The position numbers and the translations under genes were made by a program. This document shows, in pieces, positions 22,118-46,687 of a stretch of 64,000 bases of DNA. The stretch is from assembly GCA_963695555.1 (NCBI GenBank), contig CAVOGR010000005.1, forward strand, positions 384,001-448,000, read 5' to 3'. Position 1 is the first letter of the stretch, and the number at the start of each line of letters is the position of its first letter. The notes below the pieces were generated by a model. That model was given only the letters and a program-made list of their open reading frames with translations. It did no database searches and was not told where the DNA came from. This DNA is from an uncultured Gemmatimonadales bacterium (GTDB lineage: Bacteria > Gemmatimonadota > Gemmatimonadetes > Gemmatimonadales > GWC2-71-9).

Positions 22118-22305
22118 TCAGGCGGCCTCCGCGGCCGGATGCACCAGGATGTCCCGGGCGATCTCCGGATCGAGCGCCAGCTCGGTCTCGTCCACCTTTA
22201 CCACGCAGGCCGGACGTTGCTGGATCACCGTGATCCGGGCGCCGGGCACCATGCCGAAGACCGCCAGACGCTGGTGCCTGGGCGACGTGGTCGAGCCGTA
22301 CATCA
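22118..22305 (-). CDS. C-terminal FeoA domain (FeoA or DtxR-FeoA protein), 5' part missing at the segment junction
   Basis: QRLAVFGMVPGARITVIQQRPACVVKVDETELALDPEIARDILV. Confidence 0.75.
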
Positions 22306-31570: not shown

Positions 31571-31728
31571 GCCGGTCAGTCTGCCCGCATCGGTGCGGGT
31601 TCTCCATCGGCCTTGCGCCCCAGCAGCCGGCGCTCTTAAGCGATTTCCGTCCCGACCGATACTACGGGAGTGCTTCGATCCCCGTCATGCGCCTCTTGCG
31701 ACCACCGTCGGACGATGAGGAACCACCG

Positions 31729-32160
31729 ATGACCATGACAACGGCAACCGAATCCATCCGGGTCAACGGCGACGGCGCGATCGTGATGGTCGACGACAGT
31801 TTCGACGACTTCTACATCGCCGATCTGATGTACGCCCGGTGCAATCTCGACAACGAGTTCGTGCGCTGCGAATCAGGCGATGCCCTCATGCAGTACCTCG
31901 ACCAGCTGACCGCAAGCGGCGATTCGCGGCCTGCACTCATCCTCATGGATCTCAACATGCCCGGTCTGGACGGCATCGAGACGACCGCGCTCCTCCGGTC
32001 GAAACCCGAGTTCGAGTCGGTACCGGTGATCGCCATGCTGACGTCCACGGTCGACCGCCGGGATCGTCAGCGAGCGGCGTCGGCCGGCGCAAACGCCTAC
32101 CTATCGAAGCCGCTGAACCCGACCGACTACATCGAGCTGTTCAACTCGTTCGTCGACTGA
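31729..32160 (+). CDS. Single-domain response regulator (Rcp1/CheY-like)
   Basis: VDDS, ILMDLNMPGLDG, MLTST, GANAYLSKP. Confidence 0.92.
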   Translation: MTMTTATESIRVNGDGAIVMVDDSFDDFYIADLMYARCNLDNEFVRCESGDALMQYLDQLTASGDSRPALILMDLNMPGLDGIETTALLRSKPEFESVPVIAMLTSTVDRRDRQRAASAGANAYLSKPLNPTDYIELFNSFVD

Positions 32161-32178
32161 GCGAACCGCCGGCATCGC

Positions 32179-34702
32179 TCATTGCAGCCTGTTCGTCGTG
32201 ATCGGCGGCTTCGGAGGCGGCGGCGCAGCAACCCGCATTACCAAGGGACGCAACTCCCCGACATCCATCGGCCGAGCGAACAGGAATCCCTGCGCCATGT
32301 CGCACGCCGTTGTCTGCAACGCCTTCAACTGTTCCGGACCTTCGATGCCGTCGGCCACAACCCGCATTCCGAGGGCGTGGGCGATCTCGATGACGCCGTG
32401 GACAAACGGCACGTTCTCGCCGCCACCGGCGAGACGGTCGGCCATACGCCGGCCGAGTTTCAACACGTCGATGTCGAGTCTCTGCAGGTAACCGAGCGAG
32501 GCCTGCCCATCGCCGAACCGATCGAGGGCCACGATCGCGCCGGCAGCTCGCATGGTGGCCAGCGCCGCCACGGACCGGTCGAACTGATCGACTAGTACCT
32601 CTTCAGGCCATTCGATCATGAGCCGGCCTCGTGCCTGATCGAGGGCTGGGGAGGCCAGAAGCGTGCCGATCGATTCGTCGAAGATGTGCTGAGGAGCCAA
32701 GTTCACCGATACGAACAGCTTGGGGTCCAGCGGCCAGACGTCGGCCAGCTCCTCGGTCGCTTTCGTCAACACCCACCGGTCGAGCTGGACCATCAAGCCG
32801 GCCCGCTCCACCTCGCCCAGGAACTCCCCCGGCAGGAGGAGGCCACGCCGGGGATGGCGCCAGCGGACGAGCGTTTCGACCCCACAGACACGCCGCTGTG
32901 AGACGTCGATGATCGGCTGAAAGTGCAGTTCCAGCTGGTCTTGGCGAATTGCCGAATCGAGCGAGCCTGCTTTGACTTGCCGTGGTGTGGTCTGCCCGAC
33001 GTCGTGTTTCGCGAACGGAACCTTTGCCCGATTGCTTGGCTCGATACATCGCGGCGTCGGCGTCACGGAGGAGTGATTCGGCGTCGTGATCAGCCCCGCC
33101 ACCAACCAGTCCGACACTGCATCCGATTCTGGCCTGACCATCAGGCAGGGCGATCGGCTCGGCCATTGTGGCCACGATTCGATGGGCGATGACATCCGGT
33201 TGGTCGACGTCGATCAAGAGGACTGCGAACTCGTCGCCGCCAAACCGGGAGACGATATCCTCGGGCCGTACAAGATCGTTGAGCCGCCGGCCCACCTCGA
33301 TGAGTACGGCATCGCCGGCTGCGTGGCCGTACGTGTCGTTCACCGCTTTGAAGCCGTCGAGATCGATGAACAGGAGGGCGTGGTTCTTCGATGAGCGGGC
33401 GGCGAGGTGGAGGGCCTCGGTGAACATCGATCGATTCGGCAGACCGGTGAGCGAATCATGACTGGCCTGGTAGGCAAGCTCCCGTTCGAGCTGTCGCAGA
33501 TCGGTCAGTGCCTGTTCGAGCCGGTCGCTGTGCATCAGGATTGCCGACTGACGGGCTAATGCGCCGAGGACCTGGAGGTCGTTCTCGGAAAACGACGTGA
33601 CCTCCCCGAGCCGGTTCGCGACCACCAACAGACCGAGATCCCGATTCTCGGCACGGAGCTTGGCCACCATGGCATCTCGTCCGCCCAAACCGACGACCAG
33701 GTCGGCGACAACGCCTGTGTCGTCTCGGCCGATGATGGCGGGCTCGTGAAATGCCGACAGCGTTGAGACGACGCGTGCCACCTCTCGGGCCTTGACCAGT
33801 GAAGAGGACTGCTCCCCGGACTTGGTGCTCCGGACGACACGGATGCCGTCGTCTTCCTTCAACACCACTGCGCCGATTTCGGCCCGAAACATCTCCCGGG
33901 CCTCCTGCAACAAGGTGACGAGACCCGCCTCGGAGGCTCCGACGTCCAGTCGCCGAGTGGACCGATAGAGAAACTCGATGCGTTCCCTCTGTTCACGCTC
34001 CGAGGTGATCACTCGGAACGCGGTGAAGAGCAGGAAAACGGGAACCGCCAAGAGCAGGACGGCGAAGATGTCCCTGGCCAGAATGATGCCTGCAGTGAGA
34101 CCGATGGTTGTATTGGTCACGCTGACCACGAGCCCGAACGACAACAGCTCGGAACTCCTCCGCCAGCCAGGGAATCCTTCGGTCAGCATGACGACCAGTA
34201 CGATCAGGGCAAAGCTGGCCGCTGACCCGAGAACGACCGCCATGATCGTCGACAGCCAGATGAGCCGCTCGCCGTCGCCGAAGGGTTCCAACCCGACGAC
34301 CAGCGCGGCCGTCCCGGCAAATATCCCGAGATTTGCCGCATTGAAGGCGACCTTCAGGGCGGGCTGTCGCCTTCCAGCGAGGAGGCCCAAGGCTGTGCCG
34401 CCAATGGTGGCAATCACGACGTGGCCAGGCGCTGTGTAGAGCAAGCCCAGAACAAGAGGAATCTCGAAGAGCGAGAAACTGCTGGCTTCCGCCCGGAACT
34501 GCACGTGGATGACACGCCACTCGACAAAGGCGAATGCGGCCACAAGCCAGATGACGTTGATCTCGACGCCGGCGATTTGCGGCCGACCGCTGCTCAGCAG
34601 TGCCAGGAGGACAAGATCGAGGGTGAGCAAGGCCAGCACGAGGCCGAGAACCCGCTGTGATGGGTTGGTTCCGGCTGAACGTCGGCGGGCTCTCCGGCTC
34701 AC
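32179..34702 (-). CDS. Membrane sensor-GAF-GGDEF-EAL(degenerate) protein; frameshift at ~33020
   Basis: About 7 N-terminal TM helices, GAF-like region, HDSLTGLPNR, FIDLDGFK.VND..GH..GD, RPED...RFGGDEF. EAL part has FQPI, ETLVRW, SVNL, LDRFGDG, ADGIE, QGFLF. Confidence 0.9.
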
Positions 34703-35001
34703 CTTCAGACAATCGGCGGCGCCGGTCCCGAGATGAAATACCGGTCCGAGAAATCATCGATGCCCAGGTTTCTGGGCAGTGTTGCCCAAACATCTCGTGT
34801 CGGCCCGGGGGATTCGAGCTGAGCCTCTGGGCCAGCCGGCTCATCCTTGTTGTTCCGGGTTCAAGTTTTCGAGGTGAGGTGTCGAAAGCTGGTACGTACT
34901 AATCACTGTGACCGAGGCGCTGATCCCCACGGCTGTACTTTGGTCGCTTGGCCGTGGGTGGGAGCCAGTAGCGAAACCGGCGTTCTCTGATCGACTGAGA
35001 G

Positions 35002-36583
35002 ATGAGAACAATGAGTACAGATTGGGTCCGAGTAGAGGGAGTCACCTGGCAGACTTCCAAACGAGACCAGTTGATCGCTCTCGCGGCAGCTTTGGCCTTG
35101 CTGGTTGCGGTGGTGGCGAGCGTCGCTCCAGCTTCTGCCGGCAAACCGGGTGGCAGCAGTTGGACGCCACCTTCGGGGATGTTCGGCTCCGAGGTCGCGT
35201 GGAGGACCGGGGTGGAACCGATGTGGGATCTCGGCTACACCGGCTCCGGGATCGATGTCGCCGTCATCGACACCGGTGTGAACGCCGTCCAAGGTCTCGA
35301 CGGCAGAGACAAGATCATCGACGGACCGGACTTCTCGTTCGACTCCGACGACGCCAACCTCCGCCACCGGGATCTCTACGGCCACGGCACCGCCATGGCC
35401 AGCCTGGTCGCCGGTGCTGCCGGGAAGAACGCCGATCTCGTCGGCGCCAACAACATGGCCTACGGTATGGCACCCAACGCCAGGATCGTCAACGTCAAGG
35501 TCGGCGACGGTGTCGGCGCCGTCGACGTCTCCCAGGTCATCGCCGCCATCGACTGGGTGGTTCAGCACCGCAACGCCAACGGCATGAACGTCCGGGTCAT
35601 GCTGTTGGCCTTCGACACCGACTCCACCCAGGGCTACCTCCTCGACCCGCTGGCCTATGCCGTCGAGAACGCCTGGCATCACGGCATCACCGTCGTGGTC
35701 TCGGCCGGCAATGACGGCAAGTCGGCCCAGACCCTGGGCAACCCGGCCATAGACCCCTACGTGATCGCCGTCGGCGGCGTCGAGCCGGCCAAGGGTAACT
35801 CGTGGAAGGTGCCGGGCTGGGCCTCGTCCGGTGACGGGATCCGCAACCCGGACCTGGCCACCCCGGCTCCCAGATCCTGGCCGCCGCCGTGCCGGGCTCC
35901 TATCTGGTCAACGCCCACCCGGATGCGGTGTTCGACACCCCCGACGGGCCGGTCATCCGAGGCAACGGCACCTCCCAAGCCGCCGCCGTCGCCGCCGGTG
36001 CCGCAGCGACTCTTCTCGAGGCCCGACCGAGCCTCACCCCCGACCAGGTCAAGGCCGCTCTCACCGGGAGCGCCAACGACGTCGGCATCCCCGCCAAGTT
36101 CGCCGGAACGGGCGTCCTCGACCTCCACCCCGCTCTCGACGCCAACGTCGTCGGCGCCACCCAGACCACGCCCGGGCCACGGGCCTCGGCACCCTCGAAG
36201 CCACCCGCGGCAGCTACCACGTCGGTCCGACAGGTGATCAGCTCAGCGGTGAGCTGACAGCGTTCGGCGACACCTGGAACCCCAGCGCCTGGAAGGCCGC
36301 CACCACCCAGGCCGCCGCCTACACAAACTCCACCTTCGACGGTGCGACCTGGAGCACCGGCTCCTGGCTCGGTGGCACCTGGTCCGGCGCAACCTGGTCC
36401 GGGGCAACCTGGAGCGGCGCAACCTGGTCCGGCGCAACCTGGAGCGGCGCCACCTGGTCCGGCGCAACCTGGTCCGGCGCAACCTGGAGCGGGGCCACCT
36501 GGTCCGGCGCAACCTGGTCCGGCGCAACCTGGAGCGGGGCCACCTGGTCCGGCGCAACCTGGAGCGGAAGCAGCTGGAGCTGA
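35002..36583 (+). CDS. Secreted S8 (subtilisin-like) serine peptidase with C-terminal GATWS pentapeptide repeats; frameshifts at ~35865 and ~36175
   Basis: Signal peptide ending ASA. Catalytic VIDTG, HGT and GTSQAA, oxyanion SAGN. Tail is in ORF 35831..36583. Confidence 0.9.
36341..36580 (+). repeat. 15-bp coding tandem repeat, 16 units (12 perfect GATWS at 36386-36565)
   Basis: GG(C/G)GC(A/C)ACCTGG(TCC/AGC). Variation among the 12 core units is purely synonymous. Confidence 0.97.
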
Positions 36584-36709: not shown

Positions 36710-36794
36710 TGCCCGGGGTGGGAGTCGAACCCACACGCCCCCTGAGGAGCCGAGGGGTTTAAGCCCTCTGCGTCTGCCGTTCCGCCACCCGGGC
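36710..36794 (-). tRNA. tRNA-Leu (anticodon TAA)
   Basis: Reverse complement GCCCGGGTGGCGGAACGGCAGACGCAGAGGGCTTAAACCCCTC...GTGGGTTCGACTCCCACCCCGGGCA, with a long variable arm. Confidence 0.95.
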
Positions 36795-36861: not shown

Positions 36862-38277
36862 TCAGAGTTGCAGGACGGGAACCTGATGATGATCAAGCCG
36901 GTCGACACCCAACAGGTCGAGCATGGCCGGAGCGAAGTCGAGGTAGTCGACCTGACGATCGGCCGGTTGCTTGAAGCTGGGCGAGTTGGACACGGCCACC
37001 ACCCCTTCGGGGATGTGCCGGCCGCTGGAGTGGTCGTCGACGGCATGGATCTCCAATCCGGCCGTCGCTGCGTCGACCGATCGCCCGTCGAGGACCACGG
37101 TCTCATCGTCGACCACCACCAGGCCGTACGTCAACGTGACCACGTCGTCGACCCGATCGACCCGCCAGCGGTGATGGTCGCCACCGACCTCGGCGAGGCG
37201 GGCCGCCAGCTGTTCGGCCGCTTCGGTCGATCCGCAGGCGAGCGTCAGGTTGGGCGCCATCGAACCGCGGACCGACGGCATCCGATCGACGTCGACGCCG
37301 ACTGCGGCGAGAAACGCCTCCGGATCCACGATCACCACGTCGTGGGTCAGGTCCGACTCGAGTTCGCGACTCGGCCCCTGGCCCATCGACGACACGACAA
37401 CCAGCGTTCGACCGTTCCGTTTGCACCACTCGTCGAGCCGCGTCAGAAAGTGATCCAGCATCTCGACGGCCACCGCAATCTCGTCGCGGTGGCGGGCGAC
37501 CCAGTCGATCGAGTAGTGCTCGGTGCTGAAATCGTCGGGGTACATGGCATACCAGTAGCGATGCATGGCGGCGGCAACGTGGTTCGTGAACATCACCGCC
37601 AGGTCCGGGGCCTCGTCGGTCAGCAGCCGCAGGAACACGTCGGACAGGATCATGAACTGTCCGGACCGGACCCGCTCCCGGGGAACCCGCCCTGCCGCCG
37701 CCTCGGCGGCCAGCCGACCGAGCCGGGCGACCGTCGACCCGCTCAACCCAAGCCCGGCCATCGCCTTCAACGCCGGACCGACCTCGGACCGTACCGACCG
37801 AAGATCCGACTTCCGGCTGTTCGCCTTGGTCAACCGCAGATTGAGTTCCTGGAACGGTCGATACCGGTCGGGACTCGTGTCGGCATCGACGGCGAAGCAG
37901 TCGGGAATGGCGAAGCGGTAGTCACCACTCGAGCACTGGATCGACAGCGGCGACGAATGCAACGTGCTCACGAGCCCGACGGAGCGATCGGAACGGGCCG
38001 CCACCTGCCAGTAGAGGGGGTAGGTGGCCGGTTTCGGATCGCCGTACCACCACACCCGATGGTCCCGCCACGGCACCCCGGTGTTGAGTGAGGCCCAGGT
38101 CTGCGATGGATACATCTCCCTCGGGAGCTGCTCCGACACGACCGTGTCGACGACCTGGTCGTCGTCGAGTAGCTGCCCGATGAACGGCGCTCGACCCATC
38201 GCGGCCACGTCGGTCAGCACCCGGCGTGGAACCTCGTTCACCTCGATGACGACGACCTGGCGATAGTCCATGAGCAT
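36862..38277 (-). CDS. Hypothetical protein, probable alkaline phosphatase/nucleotide pyrophosphatase superfamily
   Basis: IEVNEV, PSQTWASLNTG, FTNHVAAAMHRYW, VVSSMGQ, HIPEG, LDFAPAMLDLLGV. Confidence 0.6.
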   Translation of the reverse strand: MLMDYRQVVVIEVNEVPRRVLTDVAAMGRAPFIGQLLDDDQVVDTVVSEQLPREMYPSQTWASLNTGVPWRDHRVWWYGDPKPATYPLYWQVAARSDRSVGLVSTLHSSPLSIQCSSGDYRFAIPDCFAVDADTSPDRYRPFQELNLRLTKANSRKSDLRSVRSEVGPALKAMAGLGLSGSTVARLGRLAAEAAAGRVPRERVRSGQFMILSDVFLRLLTDEAPDLAVMFTNHVAAAMHRYWYAMYPDDFSTEHYSIDWVARHRDEIAVAVEMLDHFLTRLDEWCKRNGRTLVVVSSMGQGPSRELESDLTHDVVIVDPEAFLAAVGVDVDRMPSVRGSMAPNLTLACGSTEAAEQLAARLAEVGGDHHRWRVDRVDDVVTLTYGLVVVDDETVVLDGRSVDAATAGLEIHAVDDHSSGRHIPEGVVAVSNSPSFKQPADRQVDYLDFAPAMLDLLGVDRLDHHQVPVLQL

Positions 38278-44739: not shown

Positions 44740-45330
44740 CGTGGCAGGTCCTCCATGGTGTCGATGTCGGTCGGATTACCCCTGCACGGTACCTCCGAAA
44801 CGAGGTCGGGGTGCAGTCGAATGAGCGATCGGGCGCCTTCGTCGCCGCTTCGAGGGAGTAGCTTCCACATGGAGCGGTCGAGCTTGACCGGAGGGCGGCG
44901 TCGCCCGTCGAAACTCACGGTGACGATGGGGCCGTCCCCCTCGGTCACCGCCCTCCAGGCGTCGGGGCCGATCAGCGGTTGGTCGGCCGCGGACAATGAC
45001 CGTCTGGTGCCCGTCGGCTTCGGCCCGGTCGATACCGACGGCCAGCGAGGCGGCCTGACCGTCGGACCAACGTTCGTTGTGGAGGATCGTCAATGCAAGA
45101 TCGTCAACGGTGACGGACTCCGCCGCCGCCAACCATTGGAGCGAGACTCCGAGCGTCCGCGGCGCCCGTGATCAGGTAGACCTGATCGACGCAGTCGTCG
45201 AGTAGCCCGCGCACCACGTCAAGCGCGTGTGCGGCCAGGGGGCGGCCGCGAAATTCGGCGTCGAGCTTGTGTTCGGATCCCTCGAACCGCGAGCCCGAAC
45301 CGCCGGCCGGCGTCGCACCGCTCGTGTCAT
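44730..45330 (-). CDS. MocA/YgfJ-like nucleotidyltransferase, frameshifted
   Basis: AAGSGSRF..KL, NERWSDGQAASL, ADQP, GDEGAR, DIDTMEDL. Confidence 0.8.
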
Positions 45331-45574
45331 CGAGCCCAGTGTGCCACGTCGGGCTTTGTCAGCCTCGCCGGCCGAGGCCCTTGAATCAGGCTTCATCGAG
45401 CCGATTCACGACTGTTACTGTGGTCACACCGACGATGGTGACATTAGCCAGAATGGCGCTGTTCAGCCCCTATCCCCGTGGGCAATCCGACAGATGAAGA
45501 CCGGTCGACGAGTCGCCGTCGGCTAGATTCGAGCGTTCGTCCGGTTGAAGACAACAGGAAACAGAAACCCGCTC

Positions 45575-45690
45575 ATGGACTCCACAACGTTACACAACCA
45601 GCTACTGACCCTGGCCACGAGCCACCTCTGGACCTGGGACCACGAGCTGTTGGCGCTGCTCGATCACAAACGGTCCGCGCCTTCGGGATT
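45575..45690 (+). CDS. Possible N-terminus of an alpha-glucan phosphorylase, truncated at the junction
   Basis: LLTLATSHLWTWDHELLALL resembles the L..LA.NL.W.W start of DUF3417-type phosphorylases. Only ~35 codons are present. Confidence 0.45.
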
Positions 45691-45696
45691 GCAGCC

Positions 45697-46687
<991 letters not shown>

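What the first reader, a model, noticed from the sequence alone, without database searches (positions are those of the whole stretch)
32179..36583. Secreted subtilase with a tandem GATWS tail, divergently paired with a membrane-sensor diguanylate cyclase: candidate peptide-signalling system
Seen: an exported S8 protease with a complete D/H/S triad ends in 16 pentapeptides with Trp every fifth residue, running to the stop codon. It shares a ~300-bp divergent intergenic region with a ~7-TM sensor-GAF-GGDEF-EAL gene. Established: GGDEF proteins make c-di-GMP, and subtilases commonly self-process. Inference: the protease may release many identical Trp-containing peptides from its own tail, or display the tail, as a ligand for the adjacent membrane sensor. 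That would be a self-contained protease/propheromone-to-c-di-GMP circuit. I recall similar WSG-tailed S8 genes beside GGDEF/HD-GYP genes in Actinobacteria but know of no characterisation; this recollection is unverified.
Basis: partly seen in the sequence, partly recalled or inferred. Interest (0 to 1): 0.82.

Follow-up and report, generated by a model that had tools for sequence, protein, structure and literature searches.

The report
Trp-tailed protease, riboswitch and MASE9 sensor
A protease gene with an export signal ends in 16 tryptophan-containing five-residue units, sits behind a c-di-GMP-type RNA switch and beside a membrane sensor gene, and related sensors elsewhere are often preceded by tiny tryptophan-ended genes, so the tail is likely a many-copy source of the so-far unknown signal for this orphan sensor family.

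Summary
Observation holds, with corrections: both genes are frameshifted in this assembly (three 1-nt indels against an intact 89%-identical locus), the EAL domain is degenerate, and the stretch looks Acidimicrobiia-derived and foreign to its host contig. The linkage is real: 67 of 78 related S8 loci carry the same membrane domain, against 0 of 14 other S8 genes. That domain is MASE9-like and folds like an ECF S-component, but its charge pattern predicts a pocket facing the cytoplasm. In the reverse direction, MASE9-like genes without a protease are often preceded by Trp-ended micro-ORFs (17 of 27 and 11 of 51; control 15 of 1067). Best reading: the tail is a multi-copy propheromone, likely cut by its own protease, re-imported Phr-style and sensed by the MASE9-like cyclase, with riboswitch feedback. 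Cleavage, binding and uptake are untested; tail-sensor co-variation was not significant on a tree. Not found in ten literature searches; this scan noted the module before on other genomes.

The parts
32179..34702 (-). Sensor gene: MASE9-like membrane domain, GAF, GGDEF, degenerate EAL; one frameshift near 33014
   Evidence: intact single ORF in L111
33959..34660 (-). MASE9-like membrane domain, 8 predicted helices, S-component fold, pocket predicted to face the cytoplasm
   Evidence: 14 of 64 family rows hit PF20972 (the window's own row does not); model pLDDT 92; Z 13.7 to RibU; positive-inside count
33518..33913 (-). GAF domain
   Evidence: Pfam GAF_3/GAF; coordinates
33032..33475 (-). GGDEF domain with intact GGDEF motif and RxxD inhibitory site (predicted active cyclase)
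   Evidence: PF00990 E 1.4e-40; motifs read
32266..32961 (-). EAL domain with degenerate motifs (ETL, DRFGDG), predicted inactive
   Evidence: PF00563; same changes in L111
34904..34991 (+). c-di-GMP-II-GAG riboswitch aptamer; its 3' strand can pair with the ribosome-binding region of the protease (predicted translational ON switch)
   Evidence: Rfam RF03169 45.1 bits over cut-off 40; only copy in the assembly; compensatory pairs; folds
35011..36583 (+). S8 subtilase gene, frameshifted near 35861 and 36166; about 520 aa in intact relatives
35011..35139 (+). Predicted Sec signal peptide; its n-region carries a GVTW copy of the Trp motif (35038-35049)
   Evidence: sequence; similar motif in 42 of 99 homologues against 34 of 448 control ORFs
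35269..35975 (+). Catalytic residues Asp 35269, His 35383, Asn 35710, Ser 35973
   Evidence: D, H, N, S columns invariant in 87 homologues
36164..36340 (+). Conserved post-catalytic extension that packs on the protease domain in the model
   Evidence: pLDDT 82-97 for residues 381-450 of the intact homologue P0003
36341..36583 (+). Tail of 16 Trp pentapeptides to the stop codon

Best explanation
The protease gene carries an export signal and a 16-unit Trp-pentapeptide tail and lies behind a c-di-GMP-type aptamer, and the tail is likely a multi-copy propheromone whose x-x-x-W-(S/G) units would be the ligand of the neighbouring MASE9-like cyclase. Shown: the anatomy, the gene linkage, the aptamer, and the presence of Trp-ended ORFs before related sensors. 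Inferred steps: (1) Sec export; (2) the S8 domain cuts its own tail into GATWS-type peptides; (3) because the sensor pocket is predicted to open into the cytoplasm, the peptides would be re-imported as Phr peptides are; (4) binding shifts the activity of the GGDEF domain through the GAF domain; (5) c-di-GMP frees the ribosome-binding site of the protease gene, closing a feedback loop. The sign of step 4 is unknown.
For: Linkage 67 of 78 loci (57 directly downstream, 6 divergent, 4 elsewhere in the locus; 5 of the 11 negatives end at a contig edge) against 0 of 14 other S8 genes. Reverse search: 50 of 101 MASE9-like loci have an S8 upstream; of the other 51, 3 have protease-free Trp-repeat ORFs and 11 have hydrophobic micro-ORFs ending in Trp (opposite strand 1 of 51); in a second phylum, tested with the rule fixed beforehand, 17 of 27 (opposite strand 0 of 27; control 15 of 1067). 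Trp-ended micro-ORFs have a ribosome-binding motif in 17 of 19 and 8 of 12 cases against 1 of 16 controls. Several read as signal peptide + x-x-K-W-(G/S/A), the register of the tail unit. Units are uniform within a protein and differ among lineages (56 unit types in 115 pairs). The tail has no confident fold (pLDDT 23-34). The sensor has a small-ligand-binding fold. c-di-GMP aptamers of class I and class II types sit directly before the S8 gene in 6 of 67 GTDB and 3 of 18 metagenome loci and nowhere else in them.
Against: No cleavage, uptake, binding or expression data. Tail unit and sensor residue 40 are associated naively (18 of 25 against 9 of 90) but not on a tree (9 independent pairs, median p 0.5). 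No peptide importer recurs in the loci. Some micro-ORFs have no signal peptide, and the protease n-region carries the same motif on the cytoplasmic side, which fits a ligand that never leaves the cell. Most loci have no detectable riboswitch. 6 of 78 tailed-family loci with full flanks lack the sensor. Many MASE9-like genes show no Trp-ended micro-ORF by my rule (37 of 51; 10 of 27). Low AlphaFold confidence does not exclude a beta-solenoid or fibre. Loci are related, so Fisher p-values overstate.
Confidence: 0.5

Rival explanations
1. The Trp motif is the sensor's ligand but acts from inside the same cell: the GVTW motif of the signal-peptide n-region, the tail of not-yet-exported precursor, or a membrane-bound micropeptide occupies the inward pocket, so the system monitors its own expression or secretion rather than cell density.
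For: Pocket-side loops carry more Lys/Arg than the other loops in 114 of 115 sensors; n-region motif in 42 of 99 homologues, doubled in L113 and L016; several micro-ORFs lack a signal peptide; no linked importer.
Against: A 10-20-copy array behind an exported protease is most simply explained by cutting after export; micro-ORFs with a signal peptide directly before the unit, and L137 with signal peptide, spacer and SVEWD, look like exported precursors.
Confidence: 0.22
2. The tail is structural (a beta-solenoid, fibre or surface/matrix anchor) and the genes are linked only as parts of one c-di-GMP regulon.
For: ATWSG resembles the pentapeptide-repeat consensus with W for L (recalled consensus); weak Pfam Pentapeptide_3 score 27.8 against cut-off 27 with no passing stretch; an Atlas neighbour cluster has 16% Hexapep members at score 0.89; riboswitch control of secreted proteins is ordinary.
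Against: AlphaFold gives no solenoid; units of 5, 6 and longer irregular spacing occur; single-unit micro-ORFs precede the same sensor family and cannot form a solenoid.
Confidence: 0.13
3. The protease acts on the sensor itself or on outside proteins, and the tail is a docking or self-inhibitory segment rather than a signal source.
For: Intact triad in all 87 aligned homologues; protease-sensor pairs are one-to-one, also among paralogues in one genome (L036, L063).
Against: Protease-free Trp ORFs replace the S8 gene before related sensors; the sensor has only short outer loops.
Confidence: 0.1
4. Trp-ended upstream ORFs are cis-acting leader peptides that couple translation of the sensor gene to tryptophan supply.
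For: 57 of 78 loci and all micro-ORFs lie directly upstream on the sensor's strand.
Against: The window and 6 of 78 loci are divergent, where cis coupling is impossible; flanking residues and signal peptides are conserved, not only Trp codons.
Confidence: 0.05

Closest known systems
MASE9 sensor domain, Pfam PF20972 (Galperin and Chou, bioRxiv 10.1101/2021.11.05.467447; passages read)
   Same: 8 predicted TM segments, fused to GGDEF-EAL or HD-GYP; 14 of 64 rows of my alignment hit the model; the paper suggests ligand binding within the membrane.
   Different: No ligand or partner gene is named in the passages read ('protease' and 'peptidase' occur 0 times); the window's own domain is below the Pfam threshold; it carries a GAF after the membrane part.
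S-component fold receptors, 5TMR-LYT and ECF S-components (PMC11109136; passages and section 8 read)
   Same: Six-helix core with a lid between helices 1 and 2; Z 9.9-13.7 to 15 S-components, next unrelated row 7.5.
   Different: There the helix 1-2 loop and pocket face outward; here extra helices on both ends and the charge bias predict the inverse. 'MASE' does not occur in that paper's main text.
Rap-Phr / RRNPPA peptide signalling, including tandemly duplicated propeptides (PMC11343458; abstract and outline read)
   Same: Exported precursor beside its receptor gene, several pheromone copies in one propeptide, maturation by extracellular proteases; re-import of such peptides per the abstract start of PMC3601965 (search listing).
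   Different: The receptor here is a membrane S-component-fold protein with c-di-GMP output, not a soluble TPR protein; the precursor is fused to a protease and has 10-20 copies.
AprX-like S8 subtilases / Tk-SP
   Same: Subtilisin fold and triad (best solved match 9ues_B, E 1.4e-24); sources label homologues 'serine protease AprX'.
   Different: Trp-periodic tail, GTSQA around the catalytic Ser, a conserved 70-residue extension, and in this subgroup no prodomain between signal peptide and catalytic domain.
c-di-GMP-II riboswitch clan, variant RF03169
   Same: Score over cut-off; P1, P3 and the pseudoknot pair in 96% of cells with 7 compensated pairs in 6 sequences; the L111 copy scores best as canonical c-di-GMP-II.
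   Different: Ligand binding of this variant was not checked; the defining paper was not available.

Membership tests
Subtilase S8 | Asp-His-Ser triad with oxyanion Asn on a subtilisin fold | tested here: met
   spread over frameshifted pieces in the window
Subtilase S8 | Proteolytic activity and self-processing | not testable with these tools
   needs enzyme assay
MASE9 (PF20972) | Match to the Pfam model | tested here: inconclusive
   14 of 64 family rows hit, best E 7.2e-10; the window's row does not
MASE9 (PF20972) | 8 predicted TM segments N-terminal to c-di-GMP enzymes | tested here: met
S-component fold | Six-helix core with lid loop | tested here: met
   Z 13.7, rmsd 3.4 over 160 residues to RibU; Foldseek E 3.6e-3
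S-component fold | Pocket facing outward | tested here: not met
   positive-inside bias puts the lid side in the cytoplasm in 114 of 115 sequences; a prediction, not a topology experiment
Diguanylate cyclase | GG[D/E]EF motif and metal-binding Asp | tested here: met
EAL phosphodiesterase | EAL and DDFGTG motifs with catalytic Glu | tested here: not met
   ETL, DRFGDG in window and L111; 35 of 60 linked sensors parsed keep DDFGTG
c-di-GMP-II riboswitch | Aptamer with pseudoknot, upstream of a gene on its strand | tested here: met
c-di-GMP-II riboswitch | Binds c-di-GMP and switches expression | not testable with these tools
   only an alternative fold over the ribosome-binding region was predicted, in 6 of 6 loci, without a shuffle control
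RRNPPA peptide quorum sensing | Soluble TPR receptor | tested here: not met
   partner is a membrane protein with GAF-GGDEF-EAL
RRNPPA peptide quorum sensing | Exported, processed, re-imported peptide encoded beside the receptor | tested here: inconclusive
   gene layout fits; processing and import untested
Pentapeptide-repeat beta-helix proteins | A-[D/N]-L-x-x repeats folding as a quadrilateral beta-helix | tested here: inconclusive
   marginal Pfam score; no fold in five models

The most novel reading that the evidence does not exclude
MASE9-like domains are an unrecognised family of inward-facing membrane peptide receptors whose ligands are Trp-ended 4-5-mers, supplied either by micro-ORFs or by the tail of a self-processing subtilase; with lineage-specific units as pherotypes and riboswitch feedback, this is a peptide quorum-sensing system wired directly to c-di-GMP across several phyla.
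Probability: 0.35. Interest if true: 0.92.

Novelty: categorically new. Interest (0 to 1): 0.8.

Why it matters
It offers a concrete, cheap-to-test ligand for an orphan sensor family found in about half of the genomes sampled in two phyla (198 of 401 and 71 of 151; these tallies include five unpublished genomes). If right, it adds a peptide-signalling architecture with no described counterpart in the papers searched: precursor and maturation protease in one chain, an inverted S-component fold as receptor, and direct control of c-di-GMP with RNA-level feedback. Cultured Actinoplanes and Virgisporangium carry the protease, and Actinoplanes carries both the protease-sensor pair and a micropeptide-sensor pair.

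Tried and rejected
Complex prediction of the sensor domain with six tail units gave no verdict (score 0.00, controls not run). Co-variation: four columns picked after a scan of all columns were tested on a tree and none reached significance. Own riboswitch models over 97 sources found only their training sequences convincingly. Folding 146 nt of the 5' region gave z 0.22; the pseudoknot is outside that method. Sequencing runs: no RNA holder listed and no holder above a share of 0.11; laid contigs show relatives with one gap over 32000-34746 but do not span the protease breaks. Close protease relatives were not found in 60 relatives or 300 class genomes of G000 (only 4 candidates scored per genome). 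NCBIfam gave no match over cut-off for the protease or membrane domain. The Atlas gave unnamed clusters as best hits, with low recognition. No third gene family recurs in more than 9 loci. Literature: ten searches showed no paper on the pairing, judged from listings and abstract starts; the riboswitch-variant paper and the supplement of PMC5737381 could not be read and may list genes downstream of this aptamer. Streptomyces RmdB has 8 predicted TM helices (PMC13232838, passages); whether it is MASE9-like was not tested.
Full report
Observation. The tail is as described: 16 five-residue units at 36341-36580 with Trp every fifth residue, ending at TGA 36583. Among the 12 consecutive GATWS units every DNA difference is synonymous, which points to selection on the peptide. 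No other such array exists in the assembly. The protease has Asp, His, Asn and Ser in the usual motifs and a predicted signal peptide, but lies in three reading frames; the sensor lies in two. Against metagenome locus L111 (89% identity over 7 kb, sensor in one ORF) the breaks are single-base indels near 33014, 35861 and 36166. I read them as assembly errors; this is inferred, as no source reads were found.

Origin. Window 1 to about 22,300 matches genus-mates of the host assembly at 76-96% in long pieces; beyond that point such matches stop and an Acidimicrobiales genome matches at about 70% in synteny, composition shifts, and the closest named protease is from Acidimicrobiia. The module therefore probably belongs to an Acidimicrobiia organism joined or transferred into contig C5; I cannot tell which.

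The protease family. The catalytic region finds 6155 proteins among 7997 scored candidates; 108 of the best 120 end in a Trp-periodic tail. The unit is uniform inside a protein and differs among lineages: GATW, GSSW, SSRW, GVRW, VKHW, ARQW and six-residue forms in Acidobacteriota. A model of the intact homologue P0003 is confident for the subtilisin domain and a 70-residue extension, and has no fold for the tail (pLDDT 23-34).

Linkage. Of 78 GTDB loci fetched with the protease alignment (the best 80 of 562 confirmed, from 3 of 64 parts of the collection), 72 have the tail and 67 carry the same membrane domain: 57 directly downstream on the same strand, 6 divergent as here, 4 elsewhere in the locus; 5 of the 11 negatives end at a contig edge. 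Fourteen S8 genes of other subfamilies have none. No other neighbour recurs widely.

The sensor. Fourteen of 64 aligned domains hit Pfam MASE9, a domain without a named ligand in the passages I read of its describing preprint. The model (pLDDT 92) matches ECF S-components, with 15 of them at Z 9.9-13.7 above a first unrelated row at 7.5; Z near 13 is borderline for helical bundles, but the ranking is consistent and Foldseek agrees weakly. In S-components and 5TMR-LYT receptors the helix 1-2 loop faces outward (PMC11109136). Here that loop and the two loops on its side hold 6.7 Lys/Arg on average against 2.1 on the four opposite loops, in 114 of 115 sequences, and a last helix leads to the cytoplasmic GAF. 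The pocket is thus predicted to open inward; an earlier scan note gave me this lead and I tested it. In the window the GGDEF domain looks active and the EAL domain degenerate.

The riboswitch. Rfam finds a c-di-GMP-II-GAG aptamer at 34904-34991, ending 19 nt before the protease start at 35011; I found this before reading earlier notes. c-di-GMP aptamers of class I and II types occur in 6 of 67 GTDB loci and 3 of 18 metagenome loci scanned, always directly before the protease on its strand; 11 GTDB loci were not scanned with Rfam, and my own models added none over all loci. Six class II copies keep P1, P3 and the pseudoknot with compensatory changes. In all six the aptamer's 3' strand can pair with the ribosome-binding region, which predicts an ON switch; no control was run for this.

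Reverse test. I searched the membrane domain in 151 Actinomycetota genomes (182 matches) and fetched 109 loci by descending score; 3 from unpublished genomes and 5 with short flanks were dropped. Of 101, 50 have an S8 upstream, 3 a protease-free Trp-repeat ORF, and 11 a hydrophobic micro-ORF ending within two residues of Trp, many as signal peptide plus x-x-K-W. That rule was shaped on this set. Applied unchanged to the 29 best-scoring loci from the host assembly's own phylum, 2 dropped as short, it gave 17 of 27, against 0 of 27 on the opposite strand and 15 of 1067 before long ORFs of the assembly; in 15 further paralogue loci without S8 it gave 2. Trp-ended micro-ORFs mostly carry a ribosome-binding motif (17 of 19, 8 of 12; control 1 of 16). 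So a Trp-ended peptide, not the protease, is the constant companion of this sensor family. Earlier notes on micropeptides prompted this test.

Against. Tail unit and sensor sequence do not co-vary significantly once kinship is handled. No importer is linked. The signal-peptide n-region repeats the motif on the cytoplasmic side (42 of 99 against 34 of 448, pattern chosen after inspection), and some micro-ORFs have no export signal, which keeps an inside-the-cell reading alive. Nothing here shows cutting, binding or expression.

Verdict. Most likely (0.5) a self-processing multi-copy propheromone, re-imported and sensed by an inverted S-component-fold cyclase, with riboswitch feedback in some lineages including this one. 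With the intracellular variant (0.22), the Trp motif is the sensor's ligand with about 0.7 probability. It works like Rap-Phr but is not a member of it. Ten literature searches did not show the pairing; unread supplements may bear on the riboswitch. This scan has reported the module on other genomes.

Noticed in passing
window ~22,300 and ~45,200-46,000 (G000 contig C5): Similarity to the host's genus-mates ends abruptly near 22,300 and composition shifts again near 46,000; the contig end may be a mis-join of other organisms' DNA or a large island. Several genes there also look frameshifted.
   Followed up: partly
window 36710-36794 (-): An 85-nt tRNA gene converges on the protease 3' end; tRNA genes also follow the protease or the sensor in L010, L012, L007, L046, L064.
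   Followed up: no
window 31687-32160 (+): Single-domain response regulator converging on the sensor gene, 18 nt apart; syntenic in L111 but not a general partner.
   Followed up: partly
window 35152-35166 (+): A further Trp unit (GSSWT) directly follows the signal peptide; the matching stretch is confidently placed in the model, and this subgroup has no prodomain.
   Followed up: no
L017, L040, L078, L112, L019: Two tailed S8 genes in tandem; in L112 the two tails use different units (GATWS and GNSWT).
   Followed up: no
L212, L222, L223 upstream of the sensor: Protease-free ORFs made of GISWV or GISWT/GFSWT repeats with irregular spacers.
   Followed up: partly
L075 3-1649: Chloroflexota S8 with a long acidic repeat ending in DSILWRILWR, before the same sensor domain.
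   Followed up: no
L060 7668-9668: S8 with a ricin-B-lectin-like insertion (recalled pattern) before a GRYWS tail and no sensor in the locus.
   Followed up: no
L082-L110: In the host's own phylum, MASE9-like genes of about 450-500 aa converge on a gene that looks TPR-like and follow a conserved 250-aa gene; labels recalled, not tested.
   Followed up: no
L068, L070: Tandem c-di-GMP-I and c-di-GMP-I-GGC aptamers before the S8 gene, with the sensor upstream on the same strand.
   Followed up: partly
window 36862-38277 (-): 471-aa ORF without Pfam or NCBIfam match that resembles an alkaline-phosphatase-superfamily protein by eye.
   Followed up: no
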